DNA of 40,000 nucleotides from an uncultured Gilvimarinus sp. Lineage in GTDB: Bacteria; Pseudomonadota; Gammaproteobacteria; Pseudomonadales; Cellvibrionaceae. The notes beneath the pieces are model-generated. The model was not told where the DNA came from, searched no databases, and was given only the letters and a program-made list of their open reading frames with translations. This document shows, in pieces, positions 12,882 to 26,666 of the stretch (the first letter of the stretch is position 1; each line of letters starts with the position of its first letter). Position numbers and translations under genes: made by a program. The stretch covers positions 21,777 to 61,776 of the forward strand of contig NZ_CAXBFW010000017.1 in the NCBI RefSeq assembly GCF_963975215.1, given 5' to 3'.

Positions 12882-13250
12882 CTATAACTTGCTGTAGCTT
12901 AATAGCCTGCTAATTTTGGTAAATTTTACGCTAGAAAACTCTATGACGTGACAAAAATCGACCTTCTTTCCCTTGTTATTTTGGCTAAAGCCATTTACGG
13001 CGCCAACTTTTCCATGCGACATTACGTGATCAATACTTACGAAAACAGTTTCAGCATCGCTTTCATTGAAGACACGCCCGATATCTTTCCCTGCTGCGAC
13101 TCTTTTATCAGAAAGCTCCCAAATAGCGCCATCAGCCAGATATTCACTCAAAAATTCAGTATCACCAGCCTCTAATGCAACGGCCACTTTCTCCACCAGT
13201 GTGTTTTTTGGCGAGTTACCACAATCCTTACTTCCGTTAATATCCACCAT
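12882..13250 (-). CDS. Cassette ORF: hypothetical protein, possibly NTF2/SnoaL-like fold
   Basis: ORF trimmed to MVDINGSK (ATG at 13250, GGAG 8 nt upstream) because the longer version runs into the attC. The NTF2-like call is a weak pattern impression. Confidence 0.5.
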   Translation of the reverse strand: MVDINGSKDCGNSPKNTLVEKVAVALEAGDTEFLSEYLADGAIWELSDKRVAAGKDIGRVFNESDAETVFVSIDHVMSHGKVGAVNGFSQNNKGKKVDFCHVIEFSSVKFTKISRLLSYSKL

Positions 13251-13266
13251 AGTTGGGGCTCCGTGC

Positions 13267-13365
13267 TTAACGCCCAGCGCAGACAATGCCAATGCGGAGC
13301 GATTTATGGGTCAATAGTTTGACCGCAGAAAGTAACACAAAGGTGCGAAGTGTTAGGTGTTATTC
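13267..13365 (-). repeat. attC site
   Basis: The + strand reads TTAACGCCCAGCGCAG ... GTGTTAGGTGTTATTC. The right box overlaps the stop codon of the ORF at 13360. Confidence 0.6.
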
Positions 13366-13755
13366 TGCCGCGGCTTTTGATGTACTGTTCTGTCTGACGG
13401 CTAGATAGGCGCCCAGAACCGCACAGCCAATAACAATTAAAAAATGCGGAATATAAATAGTGTAAGAACTAGAGTATGCGATAAACAAAACAGCTTCACA
13501 TGCGATCAGTGCGGACAAAACAATCAGCCACGGATTTGGCTTAAAAAACTTTACCGCAAAGAATAAAAGTAAAAATGTAACCACCCCATAACCCAGAAAC
13601 TGAGTTACAGCAACTTCCCAGATTATAAAGCTTGAACCAGATAGTATTTTGCCGATCTGTTCGGGAACAGCTATTGCGGCGGAAAATCCGGTAAGGTAGA
13701 CGCCAAGAAATGCTATTGCGATCCCTATAAATAAGCCAATTATTGTATCTTTCAT
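13360..13755 (-). CDS. Cassette ORF: hypothetical 4-TM membrane protein (131 aa)
   Basis: Strong RBS AAGGAGG upstream of the ATG at 13755. The sequence is very hydrophobic. Confidence 0.65.
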   Translation of the reverse strand: MKDTIIGLFIGIAIAFLGVYLTGFSAAIAVPEQIGKILSGSSFIIWEVAVTQFLGYGVVTFLLLFFAVKFFKPNPWLIVLSALIACEAVLFIAYSSSYTIYIPHFLIVIGCAVLGAYLAVRQNSTSKAAAE

Positions 13756-13773
13756 TTGATCCTCCTTGTTTGC

Positions 13774-13845
13774 ATAAGGCCCAGCTAAACGACGCGAGCT
13801 ACGAGCGCCCAGAACCGAAGGTTGTGTAGTACTTAGGCGTTCTTG
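13774..13845 (-). repeat. attC site (degenerate R')
   Basis: The centre CGCGAGCTACGAGCGCCCAGAACCGAAG is homologous to the attC at 23767-23842. The boxes are ATAAGGCC and GGCGTTCTTG, so the top-strand R' would read CTTATGC. Confidence 0.5.
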
Positions 13846-13866
13846 GCTGCGTGTATTGGCTGTACT

Positions 13867-14592
13867 TCACAGCTGTTGTCGAAGGGCTTTTTGAGTTAAC
13901 TCGCTCAGTCGGGCTCGCTGCTTGCCGAGCTCGTCAAAGTTATCTGGCGCTAGCCATTGTGAAAACGCCCGATACAAAGCCGGCCATTCGGTATCGATAA
14001 CCGAGAACCACGCGGTATCCCGGCTTCGCCCTTTGTACACTGTGGCTTGACGAAAAGTGCCTTCATACGTAAACCCAAGGCGTTTAGCGGCAGCACACGA
14101 AGGTGCATTCAAAGCATCGCATTTCCACTCATAGCGCCGATAGCCCAGATCGAAAGCTCTTTTCATCATCAAGAACATGGCCTCCGTAGCAACAGGAGTT
14201 CGCTTAAGCTGCTCGGAAAAACGAAGGTGACCAACCTCGATCGAGCCACTCGCGGGCATGATTCTCAGATAGCTCGCAACACCCACGGCTCGCCCATCCG
14301 ACTTCTGGATGATCGTGAAAAACAATGGATCATCGCCCTGACTCATTGTATCAAGCCACTCATGGTAGCGCTCAAAGGAACCAAAGGGGCCATAGGGAAG
14401 ATAGGTCCAACTTCCCCCATCGTGATCCTGCGCGTTCGCAGCATAGAGTTCTTCGGCATGGAGCTCCGGAGCAAGCGGCTCCAGGCGACAAAAGCGGCCT
14501 TCCATCGACTCCCGCGAAGGGCGCGCGGGCTCTACCCAGTCCGCAAGCGACTCTCCGACACGCTGACCGAAATCATTTATAAATTGAGTCAT
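13867..14592 (-). CDS. Cassette ORF: GNAT N-acetyltransferase (RimJ/RimL-like, Acetyltransf_3 type)
   Basis: 241 aa containing ...GSIEVGHLRFSEQLKRTPVATEAMFLMMKRAFDLGYRRYEWKCDALNAPSCAAAKRLGFTYEGTFRQ... Confidence 0.85.
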   Translation of the reverse strand: MTQFINDFGQRVGESLADWVEPARPSRESMEGRFCRLEPLAPELHAEELYAANAQDHDGGSWTYLPYGPFGSFERYHEWLDTMSQGDDPLFFTIIQKSDGRAVGVASYLRIMPASGSIEVGHLRFSEQLKRTPVATEAMFLMMKRAFDLGYRRYEWKCDALNAPSCAAAKRLGFTYEGTFRQATVYKGRSRDTAWFSVIDTEWPALYRAFSQWLAPDNFDELGKQRARLSELTQKALRQQL

Positions 14593-14600
14593 GTTTTTGC

Positions 14601-14713
14601 CTTACCGCCGAAGTAACCTGCGCTGCATGCGCAGTGAAGCTTTGGGGTAAGGTGGCAGGGCCACCCCAAAGCGGAACGTAGTATGCGGCGTCGGGTTGAC
14701 TGCCATGTTATGG
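14601..14713 (-). repeat. attC site of the parDE cassette
   Basis: The + strand reads CTTACCGCCGAAGTAACCTGCGCTGCATGCG ... GTATGCGGCGTCGGGTTGACTGCCATGTTATGG. The arms pair, and the central hairpin is CTTTGGGGT...ACCCCAAAG. Confidence 0.6.
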
Positions 14714-14757
14714 CCATATACCATTATATACCTATATTTGGTATTTGAGGTGCCGTT
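14714..14757 (+). promoter_or_regulatory. Probable parDE promoter/operator region
   Basis: AT-rich stretch with the inverted repeat ATACCA(14718-14723)...TGGTAT(14739-14744) immediately upstream of parD. I could not assign -35/-10 hexamers cleanly. Confidence 0.4.
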
Positions 14758-14997
14758 ATGTCTAAAAACACGAGTATGACCCTTGGTAACCACTTTGATG
14801 GTTTTATAGCGCAGCAAATTGCAGATGGTCGTTATGCCTCTGCGAGCGAGGTTATACGCGCAGGCCTTAGAATGCTCGAAGTAAATGAGCAAAAGCTTAT
14901 GACGCTGCGTCGAATGCTTGAAGATGGTGAGAATAGCGGTGTTGCTCAATACAGCTACGATAGCTTTATGCAAGAGCTTGATGATGAGCTTGGCTAA
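14758..14997 (+). CDS. parD: Type II antitoxin ParD (RHH)
   Basis: MSKNTSMTLGNHFDGFIAQQIADGRYASASEVIRAGLRMLE closely resembles Vibrio superintegron ParD. Its stop overlaps the parE start (TAATG). Confidence 0.9.
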   Translation: MSKNTSMTLGNHFDGFIAQQIADGRYASASEVIRAGLRMLEVNEQKLMTLRRMLEDGENSGVAQYSYDSFMQELDDELG

Positions 14998-15299
14998 TGG
15001 GAACATTCCAGCTCTCGATCCAAGCCAAAAATGACCTAAAGACCATTGCCGTCTATACCCAACATAAATGGGGGAAAGCTCAAAGACGAATTTATCTTCG
15101 GCAATTTGATGACGCTTTCCATTCAATTGCTGAAACTCCGGCCATAGGCATAACCTGTGACTTTGTAAGGCCTGGGTACAGGAAGTTTCCTGTTACGAGC
15201 CATATAGTATTTTATCGGAAAGTTTCAGACACCCATATAGAAATAGTCCGAATACTTCACAAAAGAATGGATGCTAAGCCGAGTCTTCTAAAGCCATAA
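14997..15299 (+). CDS. parE: Type II toxin ParE (RelE/ParE superfamily)
   Basis: ...IAVYTQHKWGKAQRRIYLRQFDDAF...GYRKFPVTSHIVFYRK...IEIVRILHKRMD is a typical ParE. Its TAA stop lies within the CCATAAC box of the next attC. Confidence 0.9.
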   Translation: MGTFQLSIQAKNDLKTIAVYTQHKWGKAQRRIYLRQFDDAFHSIAETPAIGITCDFVRPGYRKFPVTSHIVFYRKVSDTHIEIVRILHKRMDAKPSLLKP

Positions 15300-15329
15300 C
15301 GCTGCCAACACGCGCAGCTTTGTAGTGAA
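15296..15329 (-). repeat. attC half-site (R' arm only)
   Basis: ATAACGCTGCCAACACGCGCAGCTTTGTAGTGA is homologous to the left arm of the IS-disrupted attC (19369-19401). No matching right arm follows. Confidence 0.6.
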
Positions 15330-15344
15330 AATAGCAATATAATA

Positions 15345-15444
15345 TTGGGGACACCCACAAACTTGACAATGCCACACCTCTAAACCAATGACAATATTGG
15401 GGACACCCACAAACTTGACATTGGGGACACCCACAAACTTGACA
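15345..15444 (+). repeat. Three direct copies of the 24-nt motif TTGGGGACACCCACAAACTTGACA
   Basis: Copies lie at 15345-15368, 15397-15420 and 15421-15444. A second 20-nt motif, ATGCCACACCTCTAAACCAA, follows copies 1 and 3 (15369-15388, 15445-15464). Confidence 0.9.
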
Positions 15445-15509
15445 ATGCCACACCTCTAAACCAAAGTAAATTCAAGGAGCTCACTGCACCGCACGTTCAA
15501 GGAGGAACC

Positions 15510-16529
15510 ATGACTCAACCCCGTAAGCGCCTTATCTCTCTTGACGACACCCCTTTTTATCACTGCGTTGCCCGCTGTGTTCGACGCGCATTTTTATGTG
15601 GCTCTGGCAAGGACTATGACTTCGAGCATCGCCGGGGCTGGATCGTCCGTCGACTTAAACAACTGGCGGCGGTCTTTACCATCGACGTGGCCGCCTATGC
15701 GGTCATGTCCAATCACTATCATTTGGTCTTGCGTGTTCACCGGGAGCAGGCCGAAGCCTTAACTCGGGATGAAGTGATTGAACGCTGGTGCCAACTCTTT
15801 AAAGGGCCTCCATTGGTGCAGCGGTTCCGAGCGGGCGAGACGTTATCGCCGCCGGAACTGGAAGTCATAGATGGCATTGTCGATGATTGGCGCCAGCGCC
15901 TAGCGGATATCAGTTGGTTCATGAGGTGCCTCAATGAACCCATTGCCCGCTGGGCCAACCGTGAGGACAACTGCACCGGGCGATTCTTTGAAGGACGCTT
16001 TAAAAGCCAGGCGTTGTTGGATGAGCGAGCCGTATTAAGCTGTATGGCCTATGTGGACTTAAACCCCATCCGGGCCAGTATGGCCGATACCCCCGAGAAC
16101 TCGGACTTTACCAGCATTCAGGAGCGTCTGGGTATCGAGCCCACCACCCTCGTCGAATCACCTGCCGAAACGGATCGAGAAAAACCCTTGGCTCTGGCCG
16201 AGCTGATGCCATTTGCTGGCCGTGAGCATCAAGACCGCCAACCCAACCACCTGCCCTTTGATCTAAGCGACTACCTGGAGCTGGTAGACTGGACGGGACG
16301 CGCCATTCGCAACGACAAGCGCGGGGCCATAAACGAAAACCTGCCGAAAATTCTGGATCGGCTTGGCCTTCCTACAAAAGACTGGCTGGACACATGCTGC
16401 CATATCGAGCAGCGTTTTGGCCGAGCCATCGGCCCGGTCGCTAAAGTCAGTGAATTGTGCGAAGCACTGAATCTACACTGGATACACGGCATCAGACACT
16501 GCCGAAGCTTCTACTCGCAAACCGGCTGA
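15510..16529 (+). CDS. HUH-type Y1 transposase (Y1_Tnp/RAYT-like, 339 aa)
   Basis: HUH motif in SNHYHLVLRV and a tyrosine motif in MAYVDLNPIRASMA. AGGAGG lies upstream of the ATG. Confidence 0.75.
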   Translation: MTQPRKRLISLDDTPFYHCVARCVRRAFLCGSGKDYDFEHRRGWIVRRLKQLAAVFTIDVAAYAVMSNHYHLVLRVHREQAEALTRDEVIERWCQLFKGPPLVQRFRAGETLSPPELEVIDGIVDDWRQRLADISWFMRCLNEPIARWANREDNCTGRFFEGRFKSQALLDERAVLSCMAYVDLNPIRASMADTPENSDFTSIQERLGIEPTTLVESPAETDREKPLALAELMPFAGREHQDRQPNHLPFDLSDYLELVDWTGRAIRNDKRGAINENLPKILDRLGLPTKDWLDTCCHIEQRFGRAIGPVAKVSELCEALNLHWIHGIRHCRSFYSQTG

Positions 16530-16622
16530 CGCCAATCCTATCAAAAGCCCCTTTGTGCTCCTGCGGGCAGGAACGCCTGTGTCCGAAATACGCCCTATGC
16601 GAGAAAAACTCGCCACTCGCCA

Positions 16623-17912
16623 TCATCGAATCGATATAGCCAAAAACCGTTGACGACTGGGATGAATAGAGAGGGGGATTTTTAAACTGTGGGTGTCTTT
16701 GTTTTTTTGATCTACTCCAAGTCGACGTAGTCTACGGTATCCGCTACGGCCCCATTGTTTCCAGATATAACAACGTAATTTCCGTCTGATCCATTTGTCG
16801 ATGTCCCGCAGCGGGCTCAGTACTTCAGCCACGCCGAAGTACGCTTTCCAACCAAGCAGGTATTTCTTTAAATCTGCGATGACACTCAACAACTGATGGC
16901 CTCTCGTTCGACGGCTCAACTCCCGGATTCGGCCCTTCAGCTTGATGAGCGCTTTATCACTCACCTTGATGCGGTTTCCTCGCCGGGGGCTGAAAGTAAA
17001 ACCCAGTAAGCTCCGTTTCCATGGGCGGTCTACAGCGCTCTTCTCGTCGTTCACCTTGAGCCGAAGACGGTATTCGATAAAACGTTGTACACTGCGTTTA
17101 ATACGCTCCGCCGCTCGCTCACTGCCCGCAAATATCTGACAGTCATCCGCGTACCGACTGAAGCGATGACCTCGTCTTTCCAGCTCCCAATCCAGCTCAT
17201 CCAGAACAATATTGGCCAGCACCGGTGACAGCGGCCCTCCTTGCGGAACGCCCTCTCTGCTCTTGGTGACTTGTTGACCGTTTTGTACCGGACTCTTCAG
17301 ATAACGCCTGACCAGCTTCAGAATATCCGGATCTTGTATGCGCTGTCCGAGTCGATGCATCAACCGGTCGTGGTTAACGGTGTCGAAGAACGCCTGAAGA
17401 TCCAGATCCACGACCCAGCGCTTACCCTGCACGATGGTGCTCTGTGCGTGCCGAACGGCTTGGTGGGCGCTTCGGTGCGGTCTGAAGCCGTAACTGTTGG
17501 GGTGGAAGGTCGGCTCCCAGAGTCGACTGACGACTTGCGCAATTGCTTGTTGGATAAAACGATCAACGACCGTTGGAATGCCCAGCTTGCGCAATTTCCC
17601 GTCTGCCTTGGGAATTTCGACACGCCTGACCGCATTAGGCTGGTAACGGCCTTCGACCAGGCTTTCCTTGAGTTGTGGCCAGTGAACGTGAAGGTATCTC
17701 GACAACTGCTCTGTTGTCATACCATCTACACCCGCTGCGCCTTTATTACGTCTGACTTGTTTCAGAGCTCGTGCCAGATTATTCCTGTCGAGCACTTGCT
17801 CCATCAACGATGTTTCGATAATTGGTAATTGGATGGGATTTTCAATAACACAGGCTTCACCCACCGCCGATAGCGGTGCCCCTTGTCGAGGTTGGTCAGG
17901 TGCTATGTCCAT
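16623..17912 (-). CDS. Group II intron reverse transcriptase/maturase, C-terminally truncated (last ~30 codons read into foreign DNA)
   Basis: RT blocks include NKGAAGVDG, PQGGPLSPVLANI and RYADDCQIF (YADD). The maturase X region has LLGWKAYFG. Homology stops after ...RRLRRLGVD. No endonuclease domain is present. The true start may be MEQVLDRNNL at 17804. Confidence 0.85.
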   Translation of the reverse strand: MDIAPDQPRQGAPLSAVGEACVIENPIQLPIIETSLMEQVLDRNNLARALKQVRRNKGAAGVDGMTTEQLSRYLHVHWPQLKESLVEGRYQPNAVRRVEIPKADGKLRKLGIPTVVDRFIQQAIAQVVSRLWEPTFHPNSYGFRPHRSAHQAVRHAQSTIVQGKRWVVDLDLQAFFDTVNHDRLMHRLGQRIQDPDILKLVRRYLKSPVQNGQQVTKSREGVPQGGPLSPVLANIVLDELDWELERRGHRFSRYADDCQIFAGSERAAERIKRSVQRFIEYRLRLKVNDEKSAVDRPWKRSLLGFTFSPRRGNRIKVSDKALIKLKGRIRELSRRTRGHQLLSVIADLKKYLLGWKAYFGVAEVLSPLRDIDKWIRRKLRCYIWKQWGRSGYRRLRRLGVDQKNKDTHSLKIPLSIHPSRQRFLAISIR

Positions 17913-18326
17913 GTTCTTACAATCTATACATACCAGAAATGTTCAGGCCTTCAGTGCCGAGAAATACACCTACTATGCCCTCTGCTGACTTCTGCATCGC
18001 GATCACAGAGAATTGCTTTCCTGTCAGTTGTTCCTTCAACACAATGCAGACCTCCCAGGGTAAGACACTTAACTTTCCTCGCGTAGACGCCGGATTTATA
18101 AAACATAAGCCAGTTGCAGATGGAGGGCTTAGCAGTCACGTGCCCGCTGGCCCCACCTATGTCACACCTCATATCCGATTCTTGTTCATCGCCCCGCGAT
18201 TTCGCCTTGGGCTTCCTCCAGCCAGCTCATCACGAAACTAACCTTGCCCTTTGGCTAACCTTCGGCTCTGCGAATACCTGGTACGAGGACTTTCACCTCG
18301 CGAGTTAAGTGCCATGCCTGGCACAC
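16710..18326 (-). mobile_element. Group II intron (compact, class C-like), 3'-truncated
   Basis: The minus strand starts GTGTGCCAGG... directly after attC sequence ...GCGGCGT. About 410 nt of structured 5' RNA precedes an RT/maturase ORF. I found no domain V/VI-like sequence downstream. Confidence 0.8.
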
Positions 18327-18400
18327 ACGCCGCAAGCAAAGGCGCGCGTTAGCGCGTCCAGTGGAGCGAAGCGGAACGATTTTGCCTTGCCTTGTTATGG
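18327..18400 (-). repeat. attC site (R' end interrupted by the intron)
   Basis: Identical to 24088-24161, except that the terminal CTA of CTAACGCC is replaced by the intron 5' end. Confidence 0.85.
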
Positions 18401-18402
18401 CT

Positions 18403-18792
18403 TTACACATGACGCCCTTCATGATCCCAAAGAATAAAGGTTTGATTTTCTGTGGATGACATTGATTTTATGAGTCGCTCATTATTAAAAGTTGGAATAT
18501 CCTGAAGGCGCTGCAGTAATTCACCGGCTCCAGTGGCCTCACTGGGATAAGTTATAACGCCGTCTTTAGTTGCCAAATGCCACCACACATCTTCAACAAA
18601 TGGACCTTCATCAGTTGTTTCGACTGCAACGCCAATAAGTCCATTCCACGCAATAGACTGAGGCTCCTTTTCTGGCCAATGCACCCACGCATTATTTTCG
18701 TCAAACCACACCTTTACAGAGGCATATGGGCTTTTTGCATCTTGCTGTTCGTTTTTTTTATTACTGAAGAGCGAAGATATCCATTTAAACAT
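18403..18792 (-). CDS. Cassette ORF: hypothetical protein (copy A of the duplicated cassette)
   Basis: The preferred start is MFKWISSLF (ATG at 18792, AAGGAA 7 nt upstream). An in-frame ATG within the attC box lies at 18813. The protein is identical to 24164-24553. Confidence 0.6.
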   Translation of the reverse strand: MFKWISSLFSNKKNEQQDAKSPYASVKVWFDENNAWVHWPEKEPQSIAWNGLIGVAVETTDEGPFVEDVWWHLATKDGVITYPSEATGAGELLQRLQDIPTFNNERLIKSMSSTENQTFILWDHEGRHV

Positions 18793-18811
18793 CCGGAGTT
18801 TCCTTGTAGCC

Positions 18812-18929
18812 ATAACGCCCAGCGCAGGCGCAGCCAACGCGGAGTGCCTTTTGTGTTAATGTTTGAGCGACAGCGAGTAACGCAAAAGACGCGTAGTGTT
18901 GGCTGTCGCTCTGCCGCTGCTTGTTATGT
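18812..18929 (-). repeat. attC site
   Basis: The + strand reads ATAACGCCCAGCGCAGGCGCAGCCAACGCGG ... GTGTTGGCTGTCGCTCTGCCGCTGCTTGTTATGT. The arms pair well. Confidence 0.8.
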
Positions 18930-18940
18930 TTTGGAACTTT

Positions 18941-19336
18941 CTAATTGAACCAATTACCATTGCGTAAACTTTGGTAATCTTGATTGGTAGTAATGCGAAC
19001 CATATTTGAAATAGCTCCATTTGCCCGACCATGATCCAACTCTGTAAGGAAATCTTCGACCTCAGACTCTGGTGCGTGGAGCACCACATCCAGATACTTC
19101 CTTTGCTGATTTTCGCTCAGAGCAGTCTGTCTAAGCTGAAATGGATGATGCATCGCGGCTTGAAGCAATGCCGCTCGCAATTCATTAGTTGAAATTACCT
19201 CAAAATCACGTTTTTCCAAAGAAACGGTGACGCCAAAATCTACAATTCCGCTAGCAATTGAAATATTCAACGAGTAGTCCCCATCTTTTTCCAGTGCGAT
19301 CATGCGTAGATTCTGAAATTTGATTTCGTTTTCCAT
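18941..19336 (-). CDS. Cassette ORF: hypothetical protein (131 aa)
   Basis: ORF trimmed to MENEIKFQ (ATG at 19336). The GTG-initiated extension to 19384 overlaps the attC. Confidence 0.5.
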   Translation of the reverse strand: MENEIKFQNLRMIALEKDGDYSLNISIASGIVDFGVTVSLEKRDFEVISTNELRAALLQAAMHHPFQLRQTALSENQQRKYLDVVLHAPESEVEDFLTELDHGRANGAISNMVRITTNQDYQSLRNGNWFN

Positions 19337-19368
19337 TCTTCTGGTTTGACTCTGAATCACGTGGAAAC

Positions 19369-19401
19369 ATAACGTCCGCAGCACGCGTGGCTTTGTAGTG
19401 A
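19369..19401 (-). repeat. attC site, left part (split by the IS)
   Basis: ATAACGTCCGCAGCACGCGTGGCTTTGTAGTGA pairs with the right part at 20686-20734 once the IS is removed. Confidence 0.75.
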
Positions 19402-19426
19402 TGAACTTGCACCACTTTCACGGACA

Positions 19427-20140
19427 CTATGACGCCACCCGTTGATAGGCTTTTGGCGATACGTACCCCAAAGAAGAGTGCAGGCGTTCCTCGTTGTAAA
19501 ACTCCACATAGTCAATGACTCTGGCCGCACACTCCACGTAGGAACTGAATTTCATCTGGTGTACCAGTTCGTTTTTTAATGTTCCGAAGAACGACTCGAC
19601 GAACGCATTGTCGGTTGGCGTACCCGCTCGGCTCATACTGCTGACCAGGTCAGATTTTCTGAGTGTGTTTTGGTAGATGTCAGAGCGGTATTCCGACCCT
19701 TGATCACTGTGGAACAAGCAGCCCGCTTCATTCTCCTGCAGCGCCAGAGACATTTCAAGCGCGCCTTTGATCAGGTCGGCATCATGGGCCCGAGAAAAGC
19801 CCCAGCCGATGACCTCTCGATTGAACAGATCCAAAACGGCCGCCATGTAGATTGGGCCTTGCGCCGTTTTCAGATAGGTCATATCGCCTGCCCACTGCTG
19901 ACCCGCTGCGGTTGCTTTGGGCGAATCCGCAAGCAGATTATCAGCGACCTCAGCGTAACCGCCGCTACGCCTTCCCGGCCTGGAAGCGTGATACGTAGAT
20001 TGAATGCCGTTTGCCTTCATCAGACGGTTCACTCGGCGCTTGCTGCAACTAACGTTCTGATTTCTCAAGGCTTTATGAACGCGAGGGGCTCCGTAGTTAC
20101 GCTTATGACCGACATGAACGACTTTAATGGCTTCAAGCAA
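19427..20140 (-). CDS. IS3-family transposase OrfB (DDE integrase core), normally fused to OrfA by a -1 frameshift
   Basis: rve-type sequence ...WAGDMTYLKT...FHSDQGSEY...PTDNAFVESFFGTLKNE... The reading frame continues upstream to the slippery site at 20308-20314. Confidence 0.9.
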   Translation of the reverse strand: MLEAIKVVHVGHKRNYGAPRVHKALRNQNVSCSKRRVNRLMKANGIQSTYHASRPGRRSGGYAEVADNLLADSPKATAAGQQWAGDMTYLKTAQGPIYMAAVLDLFNREVIGWGFSRAHDADLIKGALEMSLALQENEAGCLFHSDQGSEYRSDIYQNTLRKSDLVSSMSRAGTPTDNAFVESFFGTLKNELVHQMKFSSYVECAARVIDYVEFYNEERLHSSLGYVSPKAYQRVAS

Positions 20141-20259
20141 CGCTTCATCTTCCAGCGCTCTTTGGCTCAGCCCCCGATCTTCCCAATCATAGAAGCCGCT
20201 GGCCGAGACACCTAAATGCCGGCAAAGGTGAACTACTTTATGCTGGTGGCGGTTCTTCT

Positions 20260-20625
20260 CTATGAACGCGTATCGCTCTTGCGCTGATCCGAGAAGAACC
20301 GCTTTGCCTTTTTTAGGATAATGACTTCCTCTTCCTTGGCGGAGAGACGTCTCTCTAGCTCTTTGATTCGACGCTCCGCCGCTTTCAGTGCTTGCGCATC
20401 CTCTGGACGGCGCTCAGGAGGGTTGGTTTTCTGACGCATGTGCTTGTTCTCCGAGAGGCGGCCCTCTTTGAACTCCTGCCGCCATCGATAGAGCATGACG
20501 GGATGAATCCCCAGAGACGCTGCTACGTCTACGGCTTTAACGCCTTTCTTCTGGGTCATCTTGACCGCGTGGACCTTGTAAGCCAATGTGTAGCTGTCGT
20601 ACTGGTTTTTCCTTGTTACTCCCAT
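20260..20625 (-). CDS. IS3-family transposase OrfA (HTH)
   Basis: HTH-like ...VDVAASLGIHPVMLYRWRQEF..., a leucine-zipper-like tail, and A AAA AAG (the + strand reads CTTTTTT at 20308-20314). Confidence 0.9.
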   Translation of the reverse strand: MGVTRKNQYDSYTLAYKVHAVKMTQKKGVKAVDVAASLGIHPVMLYRWRQEFKEGRLSENKHMRQKTNPPERRPEDAQALKAAERRIKELERRLSAKEEEVIILKKAKRFFSDQRKSDTRS

Positions 20626-20682
20626 GTTATCACCACTTAGATTGAACAGTGAGTTACTGTCCGTGAAAGTGGTGCAAGTTCA

Positions 20683-20734
20683 TGAAGGCGAAGCCGCAAC
20701 GGAAAAGCCATCGCTGTGACTGCGCTTGTTAAAC
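20683..20734 (-). repeat. attC site, right part (split by the IS)
   Basis: TGAAGGCGAAGCCGCAACGGAAAAGCCATCGCTGTGACTGCGCTTGTTAAAC. The GCCATCGCTGTGACTGCG segment pairs with CGCAGCACGCGTGGC of the left part. Confidence 0.75.
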
Positions 20735-20736
20735 GC

Positions 20737-21099
20737 TTACCGTGCTTCATTAAAAGAAATAAACTCCATTTCATTGAGACTGAATACCCCACCGAAATCT
20801 CTTTCGCTTTGCTGGTGAAAACCAATCCAGAGTCCTTCTTCAGTTTCGCTAGCATACCAAAAAGAATTTTGCCGGCCACCCACACCATTTGATGGAAAAG
20901 GTATTTGAACTATCTCATTTCCCTGAAAGTCATACACCTTGCCTACAAAAGGTAGATCTCCGCTCCAGCCATCAATAAATAGAGCGACCAATCTTTTTTT
21001 AAGCAAAAGAGCCGCATAAGTAAACTCGAAGTTAGCGACAAATGAAATACTGTATTCTGCGACTTCGATTTTTGGGCTTTCTGATGTTTCTATTCGCAT
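20737..21099 (-). CDS. Cassette ORF: hypothetical protein (120 aa)
   Basis: ORF bounded by attC sites on both sides. I recognise no family. Confidence 0.55.
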   Translation of the reverse strand: MRIETSESPKIEVAEYSISFVANFEFTYAALLLKKRLVALFIDGWSGDLPFVGKVYDFQGNEIVQIPFPSNGVGGRQNSFWYASETEEGLWIGFHQQSERDFGGVFSLNEMEFISFNEAR

Positions 21100-21115
21100 C
21101 GATTTCTACTTGACG

Positions 21116-21202
21116 TTTAACGCCGCTATAAAAGGCGCGTGTTAGCGCGTCCAGTGAAGGCCATCTTTTTGGCCGGAACGATTTTTGATAGCTTTGTTAA
21201 GC
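21116..21202 (-). repeat. attC site
   Basis: The + strand reads TTTAACGCCGCTATAAAAGGCGCGTGTTAGCGCGTCCAGTG ... GATTTTTGATAGCTTTGTTAAGC. The arms pair, and the centre is the conserved one. Confidence 0.85.
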
Positions 21203-21204
21203 CT

Positions 21205-21684
21205 TTATTCGATGCCACGATTTTGACCTAATATTTCAGTTCGAATCCAAATGTTACCTTTGTCAAAACCTTCTAGGTCGAACGACCCTCCAAGTGCGGG
21301 GTCTAGTTTAGGGTAATAGATTTGTAATTCACCTAAAGGCCCTAACCTATTCTCCAGAATTTCTAAGTCTCTAGGGTTAATTGGGTACAAACAATACTCA
21401 GGAAAACTCTCCTCATCTAGGATGGTTTCTTTAAATTCTTGCAGGCTCTCGAATACACCATAACCTTTGCAGTTGTTTCCCGGCATACTTGGGTAAAAAA
21501 CCAAATATTCACTAGACTCTGGAGAGAATAAAAATATTGCCCCTGTTGCTGAGTACCCAATTACCTCAGTGTAATGCCACATATGCTTTTCCCACACACC
21601 GAGAATTTCACGATGCATAGGTTTATCAAAAAGCGTGTAGATAACCTTTTCATGCTTCTTCCTGCCAAATAGTTTAGATAGCAT
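21205..21684 (-). CDS. Cassette ORF: hypothetical protein (159 aa)
   Basis: ORF bounded by attC sites. The sequence is soluble and rich in aromatic residues. I have only a vague impression that it looks immunity-protein-like. Confidence 0.55.
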   Translation of the reverse strand: MLSKLFGRKKHEKVIYTLFDKPMHREILGVWEKHMWHYTEVIGYSATGAIFLFSPESSEYLVFYPSMPGNNCKGYGVFESLQEFKETILDEESFPEYCLYPINPRDLEILENRLGPLGELQIYYPKLDPALGGSFDLEGFDKGNIWIRTEILGQNRGIE

Positions 21685-21700
21685 ACGTTGCTCTCAGAGG

Positions 21701-21792
21701 CTTAACGCCGCAACCAACGGCGAGCGAAACAACGTGTAGCGAGTCCAGCCCGGCGTGTTTTTGCCGGGCGGTGTTGGGTTGCTTTGTTAGTG
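21701..21792 (-). repeat. attC site
   Basis: The + strand reads CTTAACGCCGCAACCAACGGCGAGCG ... GGCGGTGTTGGGTTGCTTTGTTAGTG. The arms pair well. Confidence 0.85.
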
Positions 21793-22260
21793 TTCATTTT
21801 TAAATTTCTCCACCCAATCAAGACTTTCATTGAATATACCTGAATCAGTCTCTTCGATAGTGGAACAGTCTGAGTGATACCAGCCGTACATGTTTTCTAT
21901 TCCTATGTTGTCGCCCACGTACTTCTTAATGCCTTTGTGAAGATCGAAACTTTCAATGTCATCAAGCAGTTGCCGAAACTGCTTTGAAGGGCTTACATTT
22001 CCCTGGCTAATAAGCAATATGTGATATCTCAACAATACCCACACTGCCTGCTCGAAACTTGGAACCGCATAACCTTTTTCCTCTACAAAGCTTTCGAAAT
22101 ACTCTGATACAGGATTCCAGTGCTCAGGTCCGTCATCCATGATATTAAGTAAATGCTCCGAGTAAACACCGTCTGTAAGTTTTTGGTCTGCAAATTGGAC
22201 CAAATCTTCAGTATTTAATTTACCTACGACATATTTCGCTATGAATATTCTGTCTTCCAT
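21787..22260 (-). CDS. Cassette ORF: hypothetical protein (157 aa)
   Basis: Trimmed to MEDRIFIAKY (ATG at 22260), because the GTG-initiated extension to 22338 lies inside the attC at 22284-22383. Confidence 0.5.
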   Translation of the reverse strand: MEDRIFIAKYVVGKLNTEDLVQFADQKLTDGVYSEHLLNIMDDGPEHWNPVSEYFESFVEEKGYAVPSFEQAVWVLLRYHILLISQGNVSPSKQFRQLLDDIESFDLHKGIKKYVGDNIGIENMYGWYHSDCSTIEETDSGIFNESLDWVEKFKNEH

Positions 22261-22283
22261 GGATGGCTCGAAGTCTTGTAACA

Positions 22284-22383
22284 CTAACGCCGTGTTCTTT
22301 TGAATTTTTGGAGTGGATGCTTTTGTGTTACCAAACACAAAAGGAGCAACGGAAATAATTTCAACAGGAACACCTTGTTAGAA
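22284..22383 (-). repeat. attC site
   Basis: The + strand reads CTAACGCCGTGTTCTTTTGAATTTTTGG ... GGAAATAATTTCAACAGGAACACCTTGTTAGAA. The arms pair well. Confidence 0.8.
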
Positions 22384-22785
22384 CACATTGCCGTTTACCT
22401 GTGACCAGTGATGTGGCATAAGCTGTTTTAAAGGGACAAACTTAATTGCGTTGCCTGGATTGCTAATAGCTACTAGGACATCTGGCCCCCAGTATATAAG
22501 CCTTTCTTGGCAAATGCCGCATGGACTTAATAGCATAAAGTCATCCGCTTCGCTTTCGCGGCACAGACACAAGCTATGAGTCACTGGCACATTGAGCTTA
22601 TTCGCTTCAAGCAGTGCCCCAACCTCCATACACAACGACAATGCATCGTTTTCAACTTCCGGTGCAACGCTTGTTAAAATACGCCCGTCCTTGAGACGAA
22701 CCGAAGCGGCGCCACCAAATCCAACTGGATATCTCGACTCGATTAATTCTTTGGCCGAGTTAAATAATTCCTGCTCTATGCTCAT
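22378..22785 (-). CDS. Cassette ORF: cytidine/deoxycytidylate deaminase-fold protein (blasticidin-S deaminase-like)
   Basis: 135 aa with zinc-ligand motifs C-M-E (LSLCMEVGA) and PCGxCxE (SPCGICQERL) at CDA-like spacing. Confidence 0.75.
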   Translation of the reverse strand: MSIEQELFNSAKELIESRYPVGFGGAASVRLKDGRILTSVAPEVENDALSLCMEVGALLEANKLNVPVTHSLCLCRESEADDFMLLSPCGICQERLIYWGPDVLVAISNPGNAIKFVPLKQLMPHHWSQVNGNVF

Positions 22786-22887
22786 ACTCGACTCGTTCTA
22801 ACAGTGTATTAGGCGGAATTTCGTTTAAACAACACAAACTCCGGCACCTTTTTATCGTCTTTTCACTAAAAAATCGAACGCATCGGC

Positions 22888-22933
22888 GTCAGGCCTTACA
22901 ATTCACACCGAAGTGTAAAATGTAAGGCCTGAC
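22888..22933 (-). repeat. 46-nt near-perfect hairpin with a UUCG loop
   Basis: The minus strand reads GTCAGGCCTTACATTTTACAC-TTCG-GTGTGAATTGTAAGGCCTGAC. This gives about 21 paired positions, including one mismatch and one G-T pair. Confidence 0.7.
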
Positions 22934-22934
22934 C

Positions 22935-23118
22935 CTAAAGTTTCAGCTCTTTGGCCACTTGGGCTTGCGTGACACCCGGCTTCTCAGACCGTTTTATGGC
23001 CTCTTTACGAAACTCTTCAGTGTAATGCTGATGTTTTTTACGTGCCATTTTGGACACCTCCATATAGGGCAAATATAACTATACAGGGTGTCTACTTTTT
23101 GTGGGTAACTTGGACTCA
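22935..23118 (-). pseudogene. IS3-family IS remnant: left inverted repeat plus the first 37 codons of an OrfA
   Basis: The minus strand reads TGAGTCCAAGTTACCCACAAAAAGTAGACACC, which resembles the IS3 IRL. It is followed by GGAGG and the ORF MARKKHQHYTEEFRKEAIKRSEKPGVTQAQVAKELKL* (22935-23048). No orfB or right end is present. Confidence 0.6.
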
Positions 23119-23196
23119 TAACGCCGCAATAAAAGGCGAGCGTTAGCGAGTCCAGCCCACGTTTTTTGTGGGCGATTTTTCATTGCCTTGTTATGC
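23118..23196 (-). repeat. attC site
   Basis: The + strand reads ATAACGCCGCAATAAAAGGCGAGCGTTAGCGAGTCCAGCCC ... GATTTTTCATTGCCTTGTTATGC, with the conserved centre. Confidence 0.85.
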
Positions 23197-23745
23197 GCTG
23201 TACGTGCCATTTTTAACTTTCCTAGTATCGGACATCCACCACTCACACATATCCCAAAAGTCCAATTTAGTAGCCTCATTGCCCATACTCTTGCGGATTT
23301 CTATTAGGAAGTTACCTAATAGCTCCATCATATCTTTGAGAAAGTCTAGTTCACCTGATTTTTGAGCCTCTTCCATGTTGTAGAGGTACTGCATTAGGTT
23401 GTTGTAAGCTTTAACGACAGAATCATTTGCCATTAACGCAAGTTTAAAGCCGTGACGCCTATACTCAAGGGTCAACATGGCGCTGGTTGCAACATCGCCT
23501 TTATCCTTGCCTTTATTCTTCTTGTCAGATTCCCAGGCAGCATCTGACATTAGTAAGATTATGAAAGGCTCTAGTATTTTGTTGTAAATCTCAATCCGAT
23601 CGTCTCGTAGCTTATTTTCGAGATCTATTTTTCTCTCGATGCTATTTTTTGCTTTCCAGCCAATAGATGAGATTATTAGGACAATTATAGGCGTTGCAAT
23701 ACTTCCAATTGCAGTAACAAAATCTAACCAATGTTTTTCTTCCAT
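23191..23745 (-). CDS. Cassette ORF: hypothetical membrane-anchored protein (1 N-terminal TM plus a helical domain)
   Basis: ATG at 23745 (the ORF track uses TTG at 23751). TM segment FVTAIGSIATPIIVLIISSIGW, then a charged, helical-looking region of about 150 aa. Confidence 0.6.
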   Translation of the reverse strand: MEEKHWLDFVTAIGSIATPIIVLIISSIGWKAKNSIERKIDLENKLRDDRIEIYNKILEPFIILLMSDAAWESDKKNKGKDKGDVATSAMLTLEYRRHGFKLALMANDSVVKAYNNLMQYLYNMEEAQKSGELDFLKDMMELLGNFLIEIRKSMGNEATKLDFWDMCEWWMSDTRKVKNGTYSA

Positions 23746-23766
23746 GCTCAATTCTCAATTTATCGC

Positions 23767-23842
23767 ATAACGCCTCACATAAGCCGCGCGAGGTACGAGC
23801 GTCGGGCGAACGAAGTGAGCGGACTTAATGTGATTGTTAGCA
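23767..23842 (-). repeat. attC site
   Basis: The + strand reads ATAACGCCTCACATAAGCCGCGCGAGGTACGAGCG ... GCGGACTTAATGTGATTGTTAGCA. Confidence 0.75.
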
Positions 23843-24022
23843 GACTTTGCCATTTGCACGGCGGGTCCAGATTGCACCTAACACTACGCCGAATGCGGTG
23901 CCAAACCCCATAGCTTGTGCCATGTCACCGGAGGCAGCACCGAAACCTGCCCCAACGGCTACACCTGTGGCAATACCAATTCCCATCTTGTTCTTAAAGC
24001 AAGCTTTGCAAAACTCTTCCAT
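23837..24022 (-). CDS. Cassette ORF: small glycine-zipper membrane protein (61 aa)
   Basis: Start MEEFCKAC (ATG at 24022, AGGAA 7 nt upstream). GxxxG-rich segment GIGIATGVAVGAGFGAASG...GFGTAFGVVLGAIW. Confidence 0.5.
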   Translation of the reverse strand: MEEFCKACFKNKMGIGIATGVAVGAGFGAASGDMAQAMGFGTAFGVVLGAIWTRRANGKVC

Positions 24023-24084
24023 GTCGTAGTTCCTATTGCGTAGGAGGCCTTGAATGCAGCCTCGGTGAATGAACGGGTGAACTG

Positions 24085-24161
24085 CTAACGCCGCAAGCAA
24101 AGGCGCGCGTTAGCGCGTCCAGTGGAGCGAAGCGGAACGATTTTGCCTTGCCTTGTTATGG
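24085..24161 (-). repeat. attC site
   Basis: The + strand reads CTAACGCCGCAAGCAAAGGCGCGCGTTAGCGCGTCCAGTGGAGCGAAGCGGAACGATTTTGCCTTGCCTTGTTATGG. Confidence 0.9.
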
Positions 24162-24163
24162 CT

Positions 24164-24553
24164 TTACACATGACGCCCTTCATGATCCCAAAGAATAAAG
24201 GTTTGATTTTCTGTGGATGACATTGATTTTATGAGTCGCTCATTATTAAAAGTTGGAATATCCTGAAGGCGCTGCAGTAATTCACCGGCTCCAGTGGCCT
24301 CACTGGGATAAGTTATAACGCCGTCTTTAGTTGCCAAATGCCACCACACATCTTCAACAAATGGACCTTCATCAGTTGTTTCGACTGCAACGCCAATAAG
24401 TCCATTCCACGCAATAGACTGAGGCTCCTTTTCTGGCCAATGCACCCACGCATTATTTTCGTCAAACCACACCTTTACAGAGGCATATGGGCTTTTTGCA
24501 TCTTGCTGTTCGTTTTTTTTATTACTGAAGAGCGAAGATATCCATTTAAACAT
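24164..24553 (-). CDS. Cassette ORF: hypothetical protein (copy B of the duplicated cassette)
   Basis: The protein is identical to 18403-18792, with the same RBS context. Confidence 0.6.
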   Translation of the reverse strand: MFKWISSLFSNKKNEQQDAKSPYASVKVWFDENNAWVHWPEKEPQSIAWNGLIGVAVETTDEGPFVEDVWWHLATKDGVITYPSEATGAGELLQRLQDIPTFNNERLIKSMSSTENQTFILWDHEGRHV

Positions 24554-25646: not shown

Positions 25647-26666
25647 ATGGAGAGACCCTCGGATATCCCAGTGTATGTACCTGAAAAATCGGCCAGATTT
25701 ATGGATCAGCTACGTGCATTTATGCGATTTAGGCAGCTCTCTTACCGCACCGAGCAAACTTATGTTCACTGGATTTTAAAATTTATACGCTTTCACAATA
25801 AGGCCCATCCATCGACCCTTGATGAAAAAGCGGTAGAAGTTTGGCTTACCCATTTAGCCACCGAACGAAACAACGCGGTGGCAACCCAGAAAATTGCACT
25901 TAATGCGATAGTGTTTCTTTATCGTCAATTTTTACGTCAGCCACTTGAGAATATGAATTTTAAGCGAGCTAAGCAGTCGCAGCGAGTCCCTACCGTGCTT
26001 TCACATACGGAGGCTAAGACGATTATTGATTTAGCCACTAACCCTTATCGGCTTATGTTTGCACTGATGTATGGCGCTGGGTTGCGACAAGCAGAGTGTT
26101 TGTCATTGCGCATACTGGATATAGATATTGAAAACCTTATGTTAGTAGTTCGCCATGGCAAGGGGCGTAAAGACCGAACAACCCTGTTACCTAAAGCGCT
26201 GCTAATTGATATCCAGCAGCAAATAGAACACGTCAGCGCTATTCATGCGATGGACTTGCAACGGGGCTTTGGCGAGGTTTATTTACCCGACTCACTCGCC
26301 AGAAAGTATCCCCGCGCAGCGTTTCAAACTAAGTGGCAATATTTATTTCCATCCAGTAGGCCAGGGCCTTGTCCACGCACGGGCGTTATTCGTCGACACC
26401 ATTTGCACCACAGCGCGGTACGAAAGCATTTAACCACCTGTGTTAATAGCTCCTCGATTGCTAAACATATATCTTGCCACACCTTCCGACACTCATTTGC
26501 CACAAGGCTTTTAGAGCAGGGCTATGATCTTAGAACCATACAGCAGTTGTTGGGTCATACGGATGTAAAGACTACTGAAATTTATACGCATGTCGTGAAG
26601 CAAGGAAAGCTAGGCGTGATAAGCCCTTTTGACGGTGTTCGGGAAGAATATGCTCGCTACGCCTAA
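25647..26666 (+). CDS. intI: Integron integrase IntI (tyrosine recombinase)
   Basis: 339 aa. Contains the integron-specific patch ...YLPDSLARKYPRAAFQTKWQYLFPSS... between patches II and III, and the catalytic contexts GLRQAE, HTFRHSFAT and LGHTDVKTTEIYTHV. Confidence 0.95.
   Translation: MERPSDIPVYVPEKSARFMDQLRAFMRFRQLSYRTEQTYVHWILKFIRFHNKAHPSTLDEKAVEVWLTHLATERNNAVATQKIALNAIVFLYRQFLRQPLENMNFKRAKQSQRVPTVLSHTEAKTIIDLATNPYRLMFALMYGAGLRQAECLSLRILDIDIENLMLVVRHGKGRKDRTTLLPKALLIDIQQQIEHVSAIHAMDLQRGFGEVYLPDSLARKYPRAAFQTKWQYLFPSSRPGPCPRTGVIRRHHLHHSAVRKHLTTCVNSSSIAKHISCHTFRHSFATRLLEQGYDLRTIQQLLGHTDVKTTEIYTHVVKQGKLGVISPFDGVREEYARYA

What the first reader, a model, noticed from the sequence alone, without database searches (positions are those of the whole stretch)
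16710..18326. Group II intron at the R' end of an attC, in the same orientation as the cassettes, and 3'-truncated
Comparison with the intact twin attC (24085-24161) fixes the insertion point to the nucleotide. The top strand reads ...GCGGCGT | GTGTGCCAGG..., which is inside the GTTAG core (GT|TAG). The intron has a GUGUG 5' end, about 410 nt of 5' RNA, and an RT/maturase without an endonuclease domain, which is a compact class C-like layout. Class C introns use a hairpin immediately 5' of the target, and the attC would supply one. As I recall the published IIC-attC lineage, those introns sit in the bottom strand, antisense to the cassettes, and block Pc transcription. This one is in the sense (top) strand, where an intact copy could splice out of the array transcript. 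It is now dead. RT homology stops after ...RRLGVD at about 16710, and I found no domain V/VI.
Basis: partly seen in the sequence, partly recalled or inferred. Interest (0 to 1): 0.7.

Follow-up and report, generated by a model that had tools for sequence, protein, structure and literature searches.

The report
Dead sense-strand intron in integron attC
This is the broken 5' part of a class C group II intron that inserted, in the same direction as the genes, into a recombination site of a marine bacterium's integron; this sense orientation is normal for its own intron lineage and has been noted twice before, so it is a new but inactive member of a known kind.

Summary
A class C (IIC) group II intron lies on the window's minus strand at 16710-18326. 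That is the strand of the cassettes, because intI is at 25647-26666 (+). Comparison with the duplicated cassette (18327-18819 = 24088-24580, 99.8%) places the insertion at GT|TAG of the attC R' core. The intron lacks its last 221 nt, which hold 42 codons and domains V and VI. No trace of them exists in the 40 kb. A 1.37-kb element encoding a RayT-like transposase abuts the break.

The sense, top-strand position is not a one-off. All 21 relatives in an attC with a readable 5' junction, plus the window, end in CGT|, and every readable 3' junction starts with TRR. The hairpin bulges lie on the 5' arm and the neighbouring ORFs are co-oriented. The relatives include introns in class 1 integrons on at least 9 plasmids. 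One of these, S. algae pKC-Na-R1, was flagged in print as "same orientation", and an E. cloacae case was published in 2012.

This clade (99% bootstrap) is separate from the classical antisense IIC-attC clade. Its EBS1 loop reads ACGU rather than ACAA, matching RCGU rather than UUGU targets. Verdict: a new, dead member of a known but little-described kind. Interest is modest.

The parts
16710..18326 (-). The first 1617 nt (88%) of a roughly 1838-nt class C group II intron. It has a GUGUG 5' end, domains I to IVa and the RT/maturase ORF up to codon 401.
   Evidence: It is 90.6% identical over all 1617 nt to an intact intron in metagenome contig L090, and 96% identical over the first 148 nt to the Amphritea intron.
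17913..18326 (-). The 414-nt 5' ribozyme part (domains I to III and the 5' side of domain IV).
   Evidence: RF02001 matches 18065-18239 at 117.7 bits. RF01998 matches 17946-18027 at 53.8 bits. Alignment with 17 relatives is.
18138..18141 (-). Proposed EBS1 (5'-ACGU-3') in the terminal loop GCACGUGA (18136-18143) of a domain I hairpin. It is complementary to the last four bases of the 5' exon (GCGU, with a U-G wobble).
   Evidence: The loop position comes from the RF02001 alignment. It is conserved in 16 of 18 lineage members. Classical IIC-attC introns carry ACAA at the same loop position. The pairing is inferred and was not tested.
16710..17912 (-). Genuine RT/maturase coding part (401 codons). 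The C-terminal 42 codons are missing.
   Evidence: RVT_1 covers residues 100-306 and GIIM covers 324-397.
16623..16709 (-). A 28-codon read-through tail of the ORF into foreign DNA (QKNKDTHSLKIP...). It is not intron sequence.
18327..18401 (-). The interrupted attC, from R'' (GCCATAAC) to the first two bases (GT) of R'. The rest of R' (TAGCAG) is lost.
18403..18837 (-). Cassette ORF whose attC received the intron. It is a duplicate of the cassette at 24164-24574.
24085..24161 (-). Intact twin attC. It serves as the empty-site reference (...GCGGCGT|TAGCAG).
15344..16709 (+). A roughly 1.37-kb transposon-like element that abuts the break. It encodes a 339-aa RayT-like HUH protein (15510-16529). 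Its left end carries three copies of GGGGACACCCACAAACTTGACA (15347, 15399, 15423). Its right end carries the inverted TGTGGGTGTC (16688-16697) followed by 12 nt.
   Evidence: The ends are conserved around orthologues at three different loci in other Gilvimarinus species.
15293..15320 (-). The 3' half of a different attC (read on the minus strand: GCTGCGCGTGTTGGCAGCGTTATGGC). It forms the boundary of the reverse-oriented parDE cassette.
   Evidence: It shows that the intron 3' end, the rest of R' and the 5' half of this attC were deleted.
25647..26666 (+). Integron integrase gene. It fixes the cassette orientation as the minus strand.
   Evidence: TIGR02249 at 399.5 bits, against a cutoff of 265. 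Pfam Phage_integrase and SAM_4 also match.

Best explanation
The feature is the inactive 5' remnant of a mobile class C group II intron. The intron belongs to a clade that homes to the top (coding) strand of integron attC sites.

Inferred mechanism for an intact member:
- The array transcript, or the intron's own transcript, is spliced.
- The RNA and RT particle then reverse-splices into single-stranded attC DNA folded as the top-strand hairpin.
- The site is chosen by the stem-loop, by a four-base EBS1 (ACGU) pairing with the RCGU that precedes the site, and by the T that follows it. The entry point is therefore GT|TRRRY, one base 3' of the IntI crossover.
- The RT has no endonuclease domain, so cDNA priming must come from replication.
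- Because the intron is in the sense strand, it can be transcribed from Pc and removed from the mRNA. The classical antisense IIC-attC introns cannot be.

What happened to this copy: after insertion, a deletion with a RayT-like transposon at its junction removed several things. These were the last 221 nt (42 RT codons and domains V and VI), the rest of R', an unknown stretch of the array and the 5' half of the next attC.

Consequences for this copy:
- It can no longer splice or move.
- It leaves the attC unusable, because GTT has become GTG.
- It leaves a 1.6-kb polar insertion in the array.
For: Shown by tool results:
- Intron identity and class.
- Exact insertion point and sense orientation.
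- Absence of the 3' end.
- Foreign element at the break, with conserved ends at other loci.
- attC remnant on the element's other side.

Lineage behaviour:
- All 21 relatives in an attC with a readable 5' junction end in CGT| (17 loci, four contigs). A 22nd clade member, L034, ends in CAT| in a non-attC site.
- All 16 readable 3' junctions start with T[AG][AG].
- Hairpin bulges lie on the 5' arm, as in the aadA1 attC of pR148, whose orientation is known.
- The nearest upstream ORF is co-oriented in 11 or 12 of 13 loci.
- The clade has 198/200 bootstrap support and is separate from the TTGT| clade, which has 200/200.
- The EBS1 loop reads ACGU here and ACAA in classical introns.
- A 90.6%-identical intron sits in three different attCs in metagenome contigs, which indicates recent mobility.

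From established knowledge: target-primed reverse transcription starts at the intron's 3' end. Abortive insertion therefore gives 5'-truncated copies, not 3'-truncated ones. This favours a later deletion.
Against: - No experiment supports the EBS1 assignment, splicing from Pc or the priming route. These are inferences from alignment and from the biology of other IIC introns.
- The window comes from a metagenome-assembled genome. The intron/element junction is seen only in one assembly deposited in several databases, so a chimeric join is not excluded.
- Whether the RayT-like element caused the deletion or merely landed at an existing scar cannot be told.
- The relationship between the two attC-homing clades is unresolved. 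They group together in 80 of 200 replicates.
Confidence: 0.85

Rival explanations
1. It is a member of the classical IIC-attC lineage (S.ma.I2 or Kl.pn.I3 type) that happened to insert in the wrong strand.
For: It is class C and sits in an attC at the GT|T position next to the hairpin, as classical members do on the other strand.
Against: - The RT is only 46-50% identical to TTGT|-type introns, against 63-92% to the CGT| group.
- The two clades are separate, each with at least 99% bootstrap support.
- The EBS1 loop reads ACGU, not ACAA.
- The 5' end reads GTGTGCCAGGCATGGCAC, not GTGCGCCCAGCATGGGCGCG.
- All relatives share the top-strand position.
Confidence: 0.02
2. The intron is intact but split by a simple insertion of the RayT-like element, and its 3' part lies just beyond the element.
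For: The break coincides exactly with the element's right end.
Against: - The sequence beyond the element's left end is the 3' half of another attC followed by a parDE cassette, not intron sequence.
- No intron 3' sequence or RF00029 match exists anywhere in the 40 kb.
Confidence: 0.03
3. The truncation is an assembly artefact: a chimeric join in a metagenome-assembled contig.
For: The source is an uncultured Gilvimarinus MAG. The region holds repeats (a duplicated cassette, several mobile elements) that can confuse assemblers.
Against: - No repeat is shared between the two sides of the junction.
- The join falls exactly at the conserved terminus of the element, as seen in three other genomes. 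This is what a real transposon junction looks like.
- The ORF reads through without ambiguity.
Confidence: 0.08
4. The intron copy was never complete, because insertion was abortive.
For: Truncated group II intron copies are common (for example UHB.F1 in PMC7923331).
Against: - cDNA synthesis starts at the intron's 3' end (established TPRT mechanism, PMC4424553). Abortive events therefore lose the 5' end, and here the 5' end is perfect while the 3' end is missing.
- The 3' exon is also missing.
Confidence: 0.02

Closest known systems
Sense-oriented class C intron in class 1 integrons: pR148, pKC-Na-R1 and seven other plasmids (at the aadA1 attC), pPp47 (at the aacA4 attC), and probably the E. 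cloacae intron of Rodriguez-Martinez et al. 2012 (J Bacteriol 194:150)
   Same: - It lies in the top strand and is co-oriented with the cassettes.
- It has the identical entry point...AAGCGT|GTGTGTCGGG ... CCCGAT|TAGATGCAC in pR148.
- It has the same EBS1 loop and falls in the same RT clade.
- The RNA is 71% identical and the RT is 68% identical.
   Different: - The window copy is in a chromosomal integron of a marine Gilvimarinus.
- Its closest relatives are in Amphritea and Marinobacterium (80-83%) and in a metagenome intron (92% aa).
- It is truncated.
- I could not read the 2012 paper or its sequence, so identity of that intron with this clade is assumed, not shown.
Classical group IIC-attC introns (S.ma.I2, E.c.I7, Kl.pn.I1, Kl.pn.I3)
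   Same: - They are class C and lack an En domain.
- They target the attC stem-loop and enter at GT|T of a GTTRRRY motif 3' of the hairpin.
- Insertion disrupts the recombination site.
   Different: - Classical members use the bottom strand at R'' and are antisense to the cassettes.
- Their IBS1 is TTGT and their EBS1 is ACAA.
- They form a separate RT clade.
- They provide outward promoters and block Pc transcription (PMC3001079).
- My own examples are L078, L054 and P. putida pVIM_Pse-KSS14.
Terminator-homing class C introns (for example GsI-IIC and B.h.I1-type; loci L004-L006, L026, L036, L044, L065, L076, L081)
   Same: - The RT architecture is the same (GsI-IIC RT, 2e-120).
- The domain I to IV RNA models are the same.
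- Recognition uses a DNA hairpin plus a very short IBS1.
   Different: - The target is a GC-rich terminator hairpin followed by a T run, not an attC.
- The Rfam consensus for the EBS1 loop is A-rich.

Membership tests
Group II intron, bacterial class C (IIC) | Intron-encoded RT with RT and X/maturase domains and no endonuclease domain | tested here: met
   RVT_1 and GIIM are the only domains. TIGR04416 scores 410 bits against a cutoff of 300. Intact relatives are 443 aa with the same two domains.
Group II intron, bacterial class C (IIC) | RT sequence closest to known IIC RTs | tested here: met
   GsI-IIC RT scores 2.2e-120 and the E. rectale IIC RT scores 2.4e-103. LtrA (IIA) scores 8e-40 and a IIB RT scores 1.8e-31. 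The curated Zimmerly database was not available.
Group II intron, bacterial class C (IIC) | Ribozyme 5' end GUGYG and a conserved domain I to IV fold | tested here: met
   The 5' end GTGTG is at 18326. RF02001 scores 117.7 bits and RF01998 scores 53.8 bits, both over the full model length.
Group II intron, bacterial class C (IIC) | Catalytic domain V and branch-point domain VI | tested here: not met
   They are absent. The intact relative L002 shows them at 6301-6375. This copy is a remnant and not a functional intron.
Group II intron, bacterial class C (IIC) | Insertion next to a DNA stem-loop with a short IBS1 of 3-5 nt | tested here: met
   The 5' exon is the attC hairpin and ends in GCGT.
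Classical IIC-attC lineage (S.ma.I2 type) | Insertion in the attC bottom strand, antisense to the cassettes | tested here: not met
   The intron is on the cassette strand. The bulges lie on the 5' arm, whereas they lie on the 3' arm in TTGT| sites.
Classical IIC-attC lineage (S.ma.I2 type) | Target consensus TTGT/T (IBS1/IBS3), as stated in PMC7923331 | tested here: not met
   The site here is GCGT/T. The lineage consensus is RCGT/T.
Classical IIC-attC lineage (S.ma.I2 type) | RT inside the monophyletic IIC-attC clade | tested here: not met
   The two clades are separate, each with at least 99% NJ bootstrap support. S.ma.I2 itself was not available. The clade was anchored with antisense introns of class 1 integrons.
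Top-strand attC-homing IIC clade (pR148 / pKC-Na-R1 type) | Entry at GT|TRRRY of R' in the top strand, sense to the cassettes | tested here: met
   for the window. for annotated class 1 integrons. for the other relatives.
Top-strand attC-homing IIC clade (pR148 / pKC-Na-R1 type) | Domain I loop GCACGUGA (EBS1 ACGU) and 5' end GTGTGCCRGGCATGGCAC | tested here: met
   where the loop is conserved in 16 of 18 members. The window loop is at 18136-18143.
Top-strand attC-homing IIC clade (pR148 / pKC-Na-R1 type) | RT groups with the clade | tested here: met
   198 of 200 bootstrap replicates.
Top-strand attC-homing IIC clade (pR148 / pKC-Na-R1 type) | Same element as the published E. cloacae 'unusual target' intron | not testable with these tools
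   The paper and its sequence are not held. It is known here only through the citation in PMC7923331.
Integron (host structure) | An intI gene followed by an array of cassettes, each ending in an attC | tested here: met
   intI scores 399.5 bits on TIGR02249. At least 10 cassettes show TAACAA...GGCGTTA attCs on the minus strand.

The most novel reading that the evidence does not exclude
Class C introns hold a second attC-homing clade that is distinct from the classical IIC-attC lineage. It is retargeted to the opposite (top) strand by a two-base change in EBS1 (ACAA to ACGU). It is therefore sense-oriented and can be spliced out of cassette transcripts. It is widespread in chromosomal integrons and stray attC sites of marine and freshwater Gamma- and Betaproteobacteria and has entered clinical class 1 integrons. 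The literature I could read treats sense-oriented copies as isolated oddities and not as a lineage with its own targeting rule. The window copy would be one dead member of that lineage.
Probability: 0.35. Interest if true: 0.55.

Novelty: new member of a known kind. Interest (0 to 1): 0.33.

Why it matters
For this locus it matters little. The copy is dead, it locks one cassette in place and it adds a polar insertion to the array.

The wider pattern is more useful. The same attC offers two intron targets, RCGT|T on the top strand and TTGT|T on the bottom strand. Two intron clades each read one of them with a matching four-base EBS1.

That gives a simple, testable rule for strand choice. It also gives a way to annotate intron orientation in integrons correctly. 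And it offers a natural contrast between an intron that is transcribed and spliced with the cassettes and one that blocks them and supplies its own promoter.

Tried and rejected
- Papers not held. The 2012 E. cloacae paper and Leon & Roy 2009 could not be read. The precedent therefore rests on how later papers cite it.
- Plasmid hits chosen to find S.ma.I2-type introns. H18, H56 and H68 turned out to be terminator-type insertions outside integrons. The classical type was finally anchored with a TTGT| RT as query.
- A strict home-made attC scanner (R'' and R' complementary with at most one mismatch) missed most attCs, including the twin. I replaced it by reading the sequence downstream of each cassette ORF.
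- A Biopython bootstrap timed out. I redid it with a numpy distance.
- Two regex scripts printed nothing because those introns start with GUACG. I read the sequence directly instead.
- MFE folding of the window's own attC gave an alternative fold. Its strand assignment therefore rests on intI, the cassette ORFs and a manual arm alignment, not on that fold.
- I considered that the RayT-like gene might be a resident cassette gene and not a mobile element. I rejected this because orthologues sit in three unrelated contexts with the same terminal motifs.
- Whether attC homing arose once or twice in class C could not be resolved.
Full report
**Setting.** The window is from an uncultured Gilvimarinus genome bin. 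The 429-aa ORF of the finding and the neighbouring 339-aa ORF are both 100% identical to proteins deposited under that name on a 155.6-kb contig. An integron integrase gene lies at 25647-26666 on the plus strand (TIGR02249, 399.5 bits against a cutoff of 265). Leftwards from about 25290 to about 13240 the minus strand carries a run of short ORFs. Each is followed by a site of the form TAACAA...GGCGTTA, which is an attC. The cassette, or top, strand is therefore the window's minus strand.

- On the minus strand, Rfam's group II models match at 18239-18065 (RF02001, 117.7 bits) and 18027-17946 (RF01998, 53.8 bits).
- The RNA starts with GTGTGCC at 18326, 414 nt before the ATG at 17912.
- The ORF has RVT_1 and GIIM domains only and passes NCBI's group II RT/maturase model (410 bits).
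- Its nearest solved relatives are class C enzymes: GsI-IIC RT (2e-120) and the E. rectale IIC RT (2e-103). LtrA (IIA) scores 8e-40 and a IIB RT scores 2e-31.
- The cassette that carries the intron is duplicated. Positions 18327-18819 equal 24088-24580 at 99.8%, and the match stops at the junction.
- The intact copy reads ...GCTTGCGGCGT|TAGCAG and the interrupted one reads ...GCTTGCGGCGT|GTGTGCC. The entry point is therefore GT|TAG in the R' core, one base 3' of the IntI crossover, and the intron is sense to the cassettes.

**The copy is 3'-truncated.**
- RT homology ends at ...RRLGVD (codon 401, nt 16710). Relatives continue with RWTAWNTAK...SLAA to reach 443 aa.
- Intact relatives measure 1834-1842 nt. 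The closest one, a metagenome intron 90.6% identical over all 1617 nt, continues with CGGTGGACGG where the window switches to foreign sequence. So 221 nt are missing, comprising 42 codons, the stop codon and domains V and VI.
- RF00029 does not match within 13500-19000 at E<=10 or in the whole window at E<=5. It does detect the intact relative's domain V/VI (27.2 bits).
- BLASTN with that relative's last 110 nt finds every related locus but not the window.

**What sits at the break.**
- Positions 15344-16709 form a roughly 1.37-kb element encoding a 339-aa HUH protein. The protein gets only a weak, sub-threshold match to the REP-associated tyrosine transposase model (33 bits) and no Pfam match.
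- Orthologues (75-80% identical) occur once each in three other Gilvimarinus species, in unrelated neighbourhoods.
- They are flanked by the same motifs. GGGACACCCACAAACTTGACA lies upstream, in three copies here. The inverted TGTGGGTGTCC plus about 12 T-rich bases lies downstream. The intron stops exactly at that downstream terminus.
- Beyond the other end lies the 3' half of a different attC (minus strand ...GCGTGTTGGCAGCGTTATGGC) and a reverse-oriented parDE cassette.
- The event was therefore a deletion. It removed the intron's 3' end, the rest of R', an unknown stretch of the array and half of the next attC, and the element sits at the scar.
- Abortive retrohoming does not explain this. 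cDNA synthesis starts at the intron's 3' end (TPRT, PMC4424553), so it would truncate the 5' end.

**Is the sense orientation unusual?** The literature I could read states that IIC-attC introns insert in the bottom strand, antisense to the cassettes, at TTGT/T in R''. It also states that they impede Pc transcription while supplying an outward promoter (PMC3001079; PMC7923331). The intron here, however, is not a deviant of that lineage.

I collected relatives from plasmids, from one genome per species and from metagenome contigs. The results were as follows.
- All 21 relatives that sit in an attC and have a readable 5' junction (RT 52-92% identical) end their 5' exon in CGT|. Every one of the 16 readable 3' exons starts with TAG, TAA, TGG or TGA. 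One further clade member (L034, a Thalassotalea bin) ends in CAT| in a site that is not an attC.
- The 5' exons are attC-like imperfect palindromes. When folded with DNA parameters, their single-base bulges lie on the 5' arm. This matches the aadA1 attC of plasmid pR148, whose top strand is known from the annotation.
- In 11 or 12 of 13 loci the nearest upstream ORF is co-oriented with the intron.
- In class 1 integrons the configuration is explicit. pR148 and seven other plasmids show intI1-qacL-blaOXA-10-aadA1-[intron, same strand]-qacEdelta1-sul1, with junctions ...AAGCGT|GTGTGTCGGG and CCCGAT|TAGATGCAC. pPp47 carries a related intron at the aacA4 attC.
- One of these plasmids is S. algae pKC-Na-R1. 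This is the case that PMC9229058 singled out as being "in the same orientation".
- An E. cloacae top-strand case was reported in 2012 (cited in PMC7923331). I could not read that paper.

**Two clades, two targeting rules.**
- In the same sample, introns whose 5' exon ends in TTGT| have a different 5' end (GTGCGCCCAGCATGGGCGCG). Their bulges lie on the 3' arm and their RTs are only 46-50% identical to the window's.
- Their plasmid relatives are the antisense introns of class 1 integrons. In P. putida pVIM_Pse-KSS14 two copies lie opposite to aac(6')-Ib'-blaVIM-2-fosE-aadA1, with junctions GAATTGT| and |TAGCGCC. In p128379-IMP one lies opposite to blaIMP-4.
- Neighbour-joining with 200 bootstrap replicates recovers the CGT| group in 198 replicates and the TTGT| group in 200 replicates. 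Whether the two are sisters is unresolved, since they group together in 80 of 200 replicates.
- The terminal loop of a domain I hairpin reads GCaaaacA in the Rfam consensus. It reads GCACAACA or GCACAAGA in the TTGT| introns and GCACGUGA in the window (18136-18143) and in 16 of 18 members of its group.
- ACAA complements UUGU, and ACGU complements ACGU or, with a wobble, GCGU. I therefore read this loop as EBS1 and propose that it decides which strand of an attC is used.
- Every attC of this array offers both targets...GGCGT|TA on the top strand and ...TTGT|TA on the bottom strand.
- The pairing, the splicing of sense copies from Pc transcripts and the replication-dependent priming are inferences. 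None was tested.

**Verdict.** The finding is real and precisely described, and the class assignment is right. Its headline claim, a sense-oriented attC intron as a departure from the known lineage, is weakened. It is a dead member of a separate clade for which sense, top-strand insertion is the norm, and that configuration is already in print and in public plasmid annotations. The remaining novelty is at the clade level: monophyly, breadth and the EBS1 rule. Its priority depends on a paper I could not read. The main technical caveat is that the truncation junction comes from a single metagenome assembly.

Noticed in passing
window 15344-16709: A roughly 1.37-kb element encodes a 339-aa RayT-like HUH 'transposase'. 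It has no Pfam match and only a sub-threshold NCBIfam match, yet more than 8000 homologues exist in the protein database. It occurs once per genome at different loci in three other Gilvimarinus species. Its conserved ends are GGGACACCCACAAACTTGACA, which holds a -35-like TTGACA and is present in three copies here, and the inverted TGTGGGTGTCC. The family and its ends appear undescribed in the libraries searched.
   Followed up: partly
window 18327-18819 and 24088-24580: A 493-nt cassette duplication (99.8% identical) lies within the array. One copy is intact and the other has the intron in its attC.
   Followed up: yes
window 19427-20625: A two-ORF insertion sequence that looks IS3-like (121-aa and 237-aa ORFs; the family was judged by eye and not run against a library) interrupts the attC of the cassette at 20737-21099. 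It is a third mobile element inside the same array.
   Followed up: no
window 14758-15299: A parD/parE toxin-antitoxin cassette is oriented opposite to the rest of the array. The parE stop codon overlaps the attC R' remnant (GCCATAAC).
   Followed up: partly
window about 13240-25290 (all attCs): Every attC in the array carries both intron targets: ...GGCGT|TA on the top strand and ...TTGT|TA on the bottom strand. Only one has been hit.
   Followed up: partly
L090 1587, L091 396, L092 306 (Logan metagenome contigs): An intron 90.6% identical to the window's, with a 92%-identical RT, sits in three different attCs. This implies recent mobility of this sub-lineage. In L090 a second RT-domain gene (537 aa) lies directly upstream.
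   Followed up: partly
L034 652 (Thalassotalea MAG): A member of the top-strand clade is inserted at ...AAGAAGGCAT| with no recognisable attC. It may be an ectopic insertion.
   Followed up: no
L094 about 2899 and 4823 (P. putida pVIM_Pse-KSS14): Two antisense classical IIC-attC introns lie in one class 1 integron. The second starts with GUACG rather than GUGYG and separates fosE from its attC.
   Followed up: partly
L002 4460-6390 (Amphritea atlantica chromosome): An intact top-strand-clade intron sits in a lone attC-like site after a Vpar_1526-family gene, with no intI within 4 kb. It may mark a stray cassette or a CALIN.
   Followed up: no
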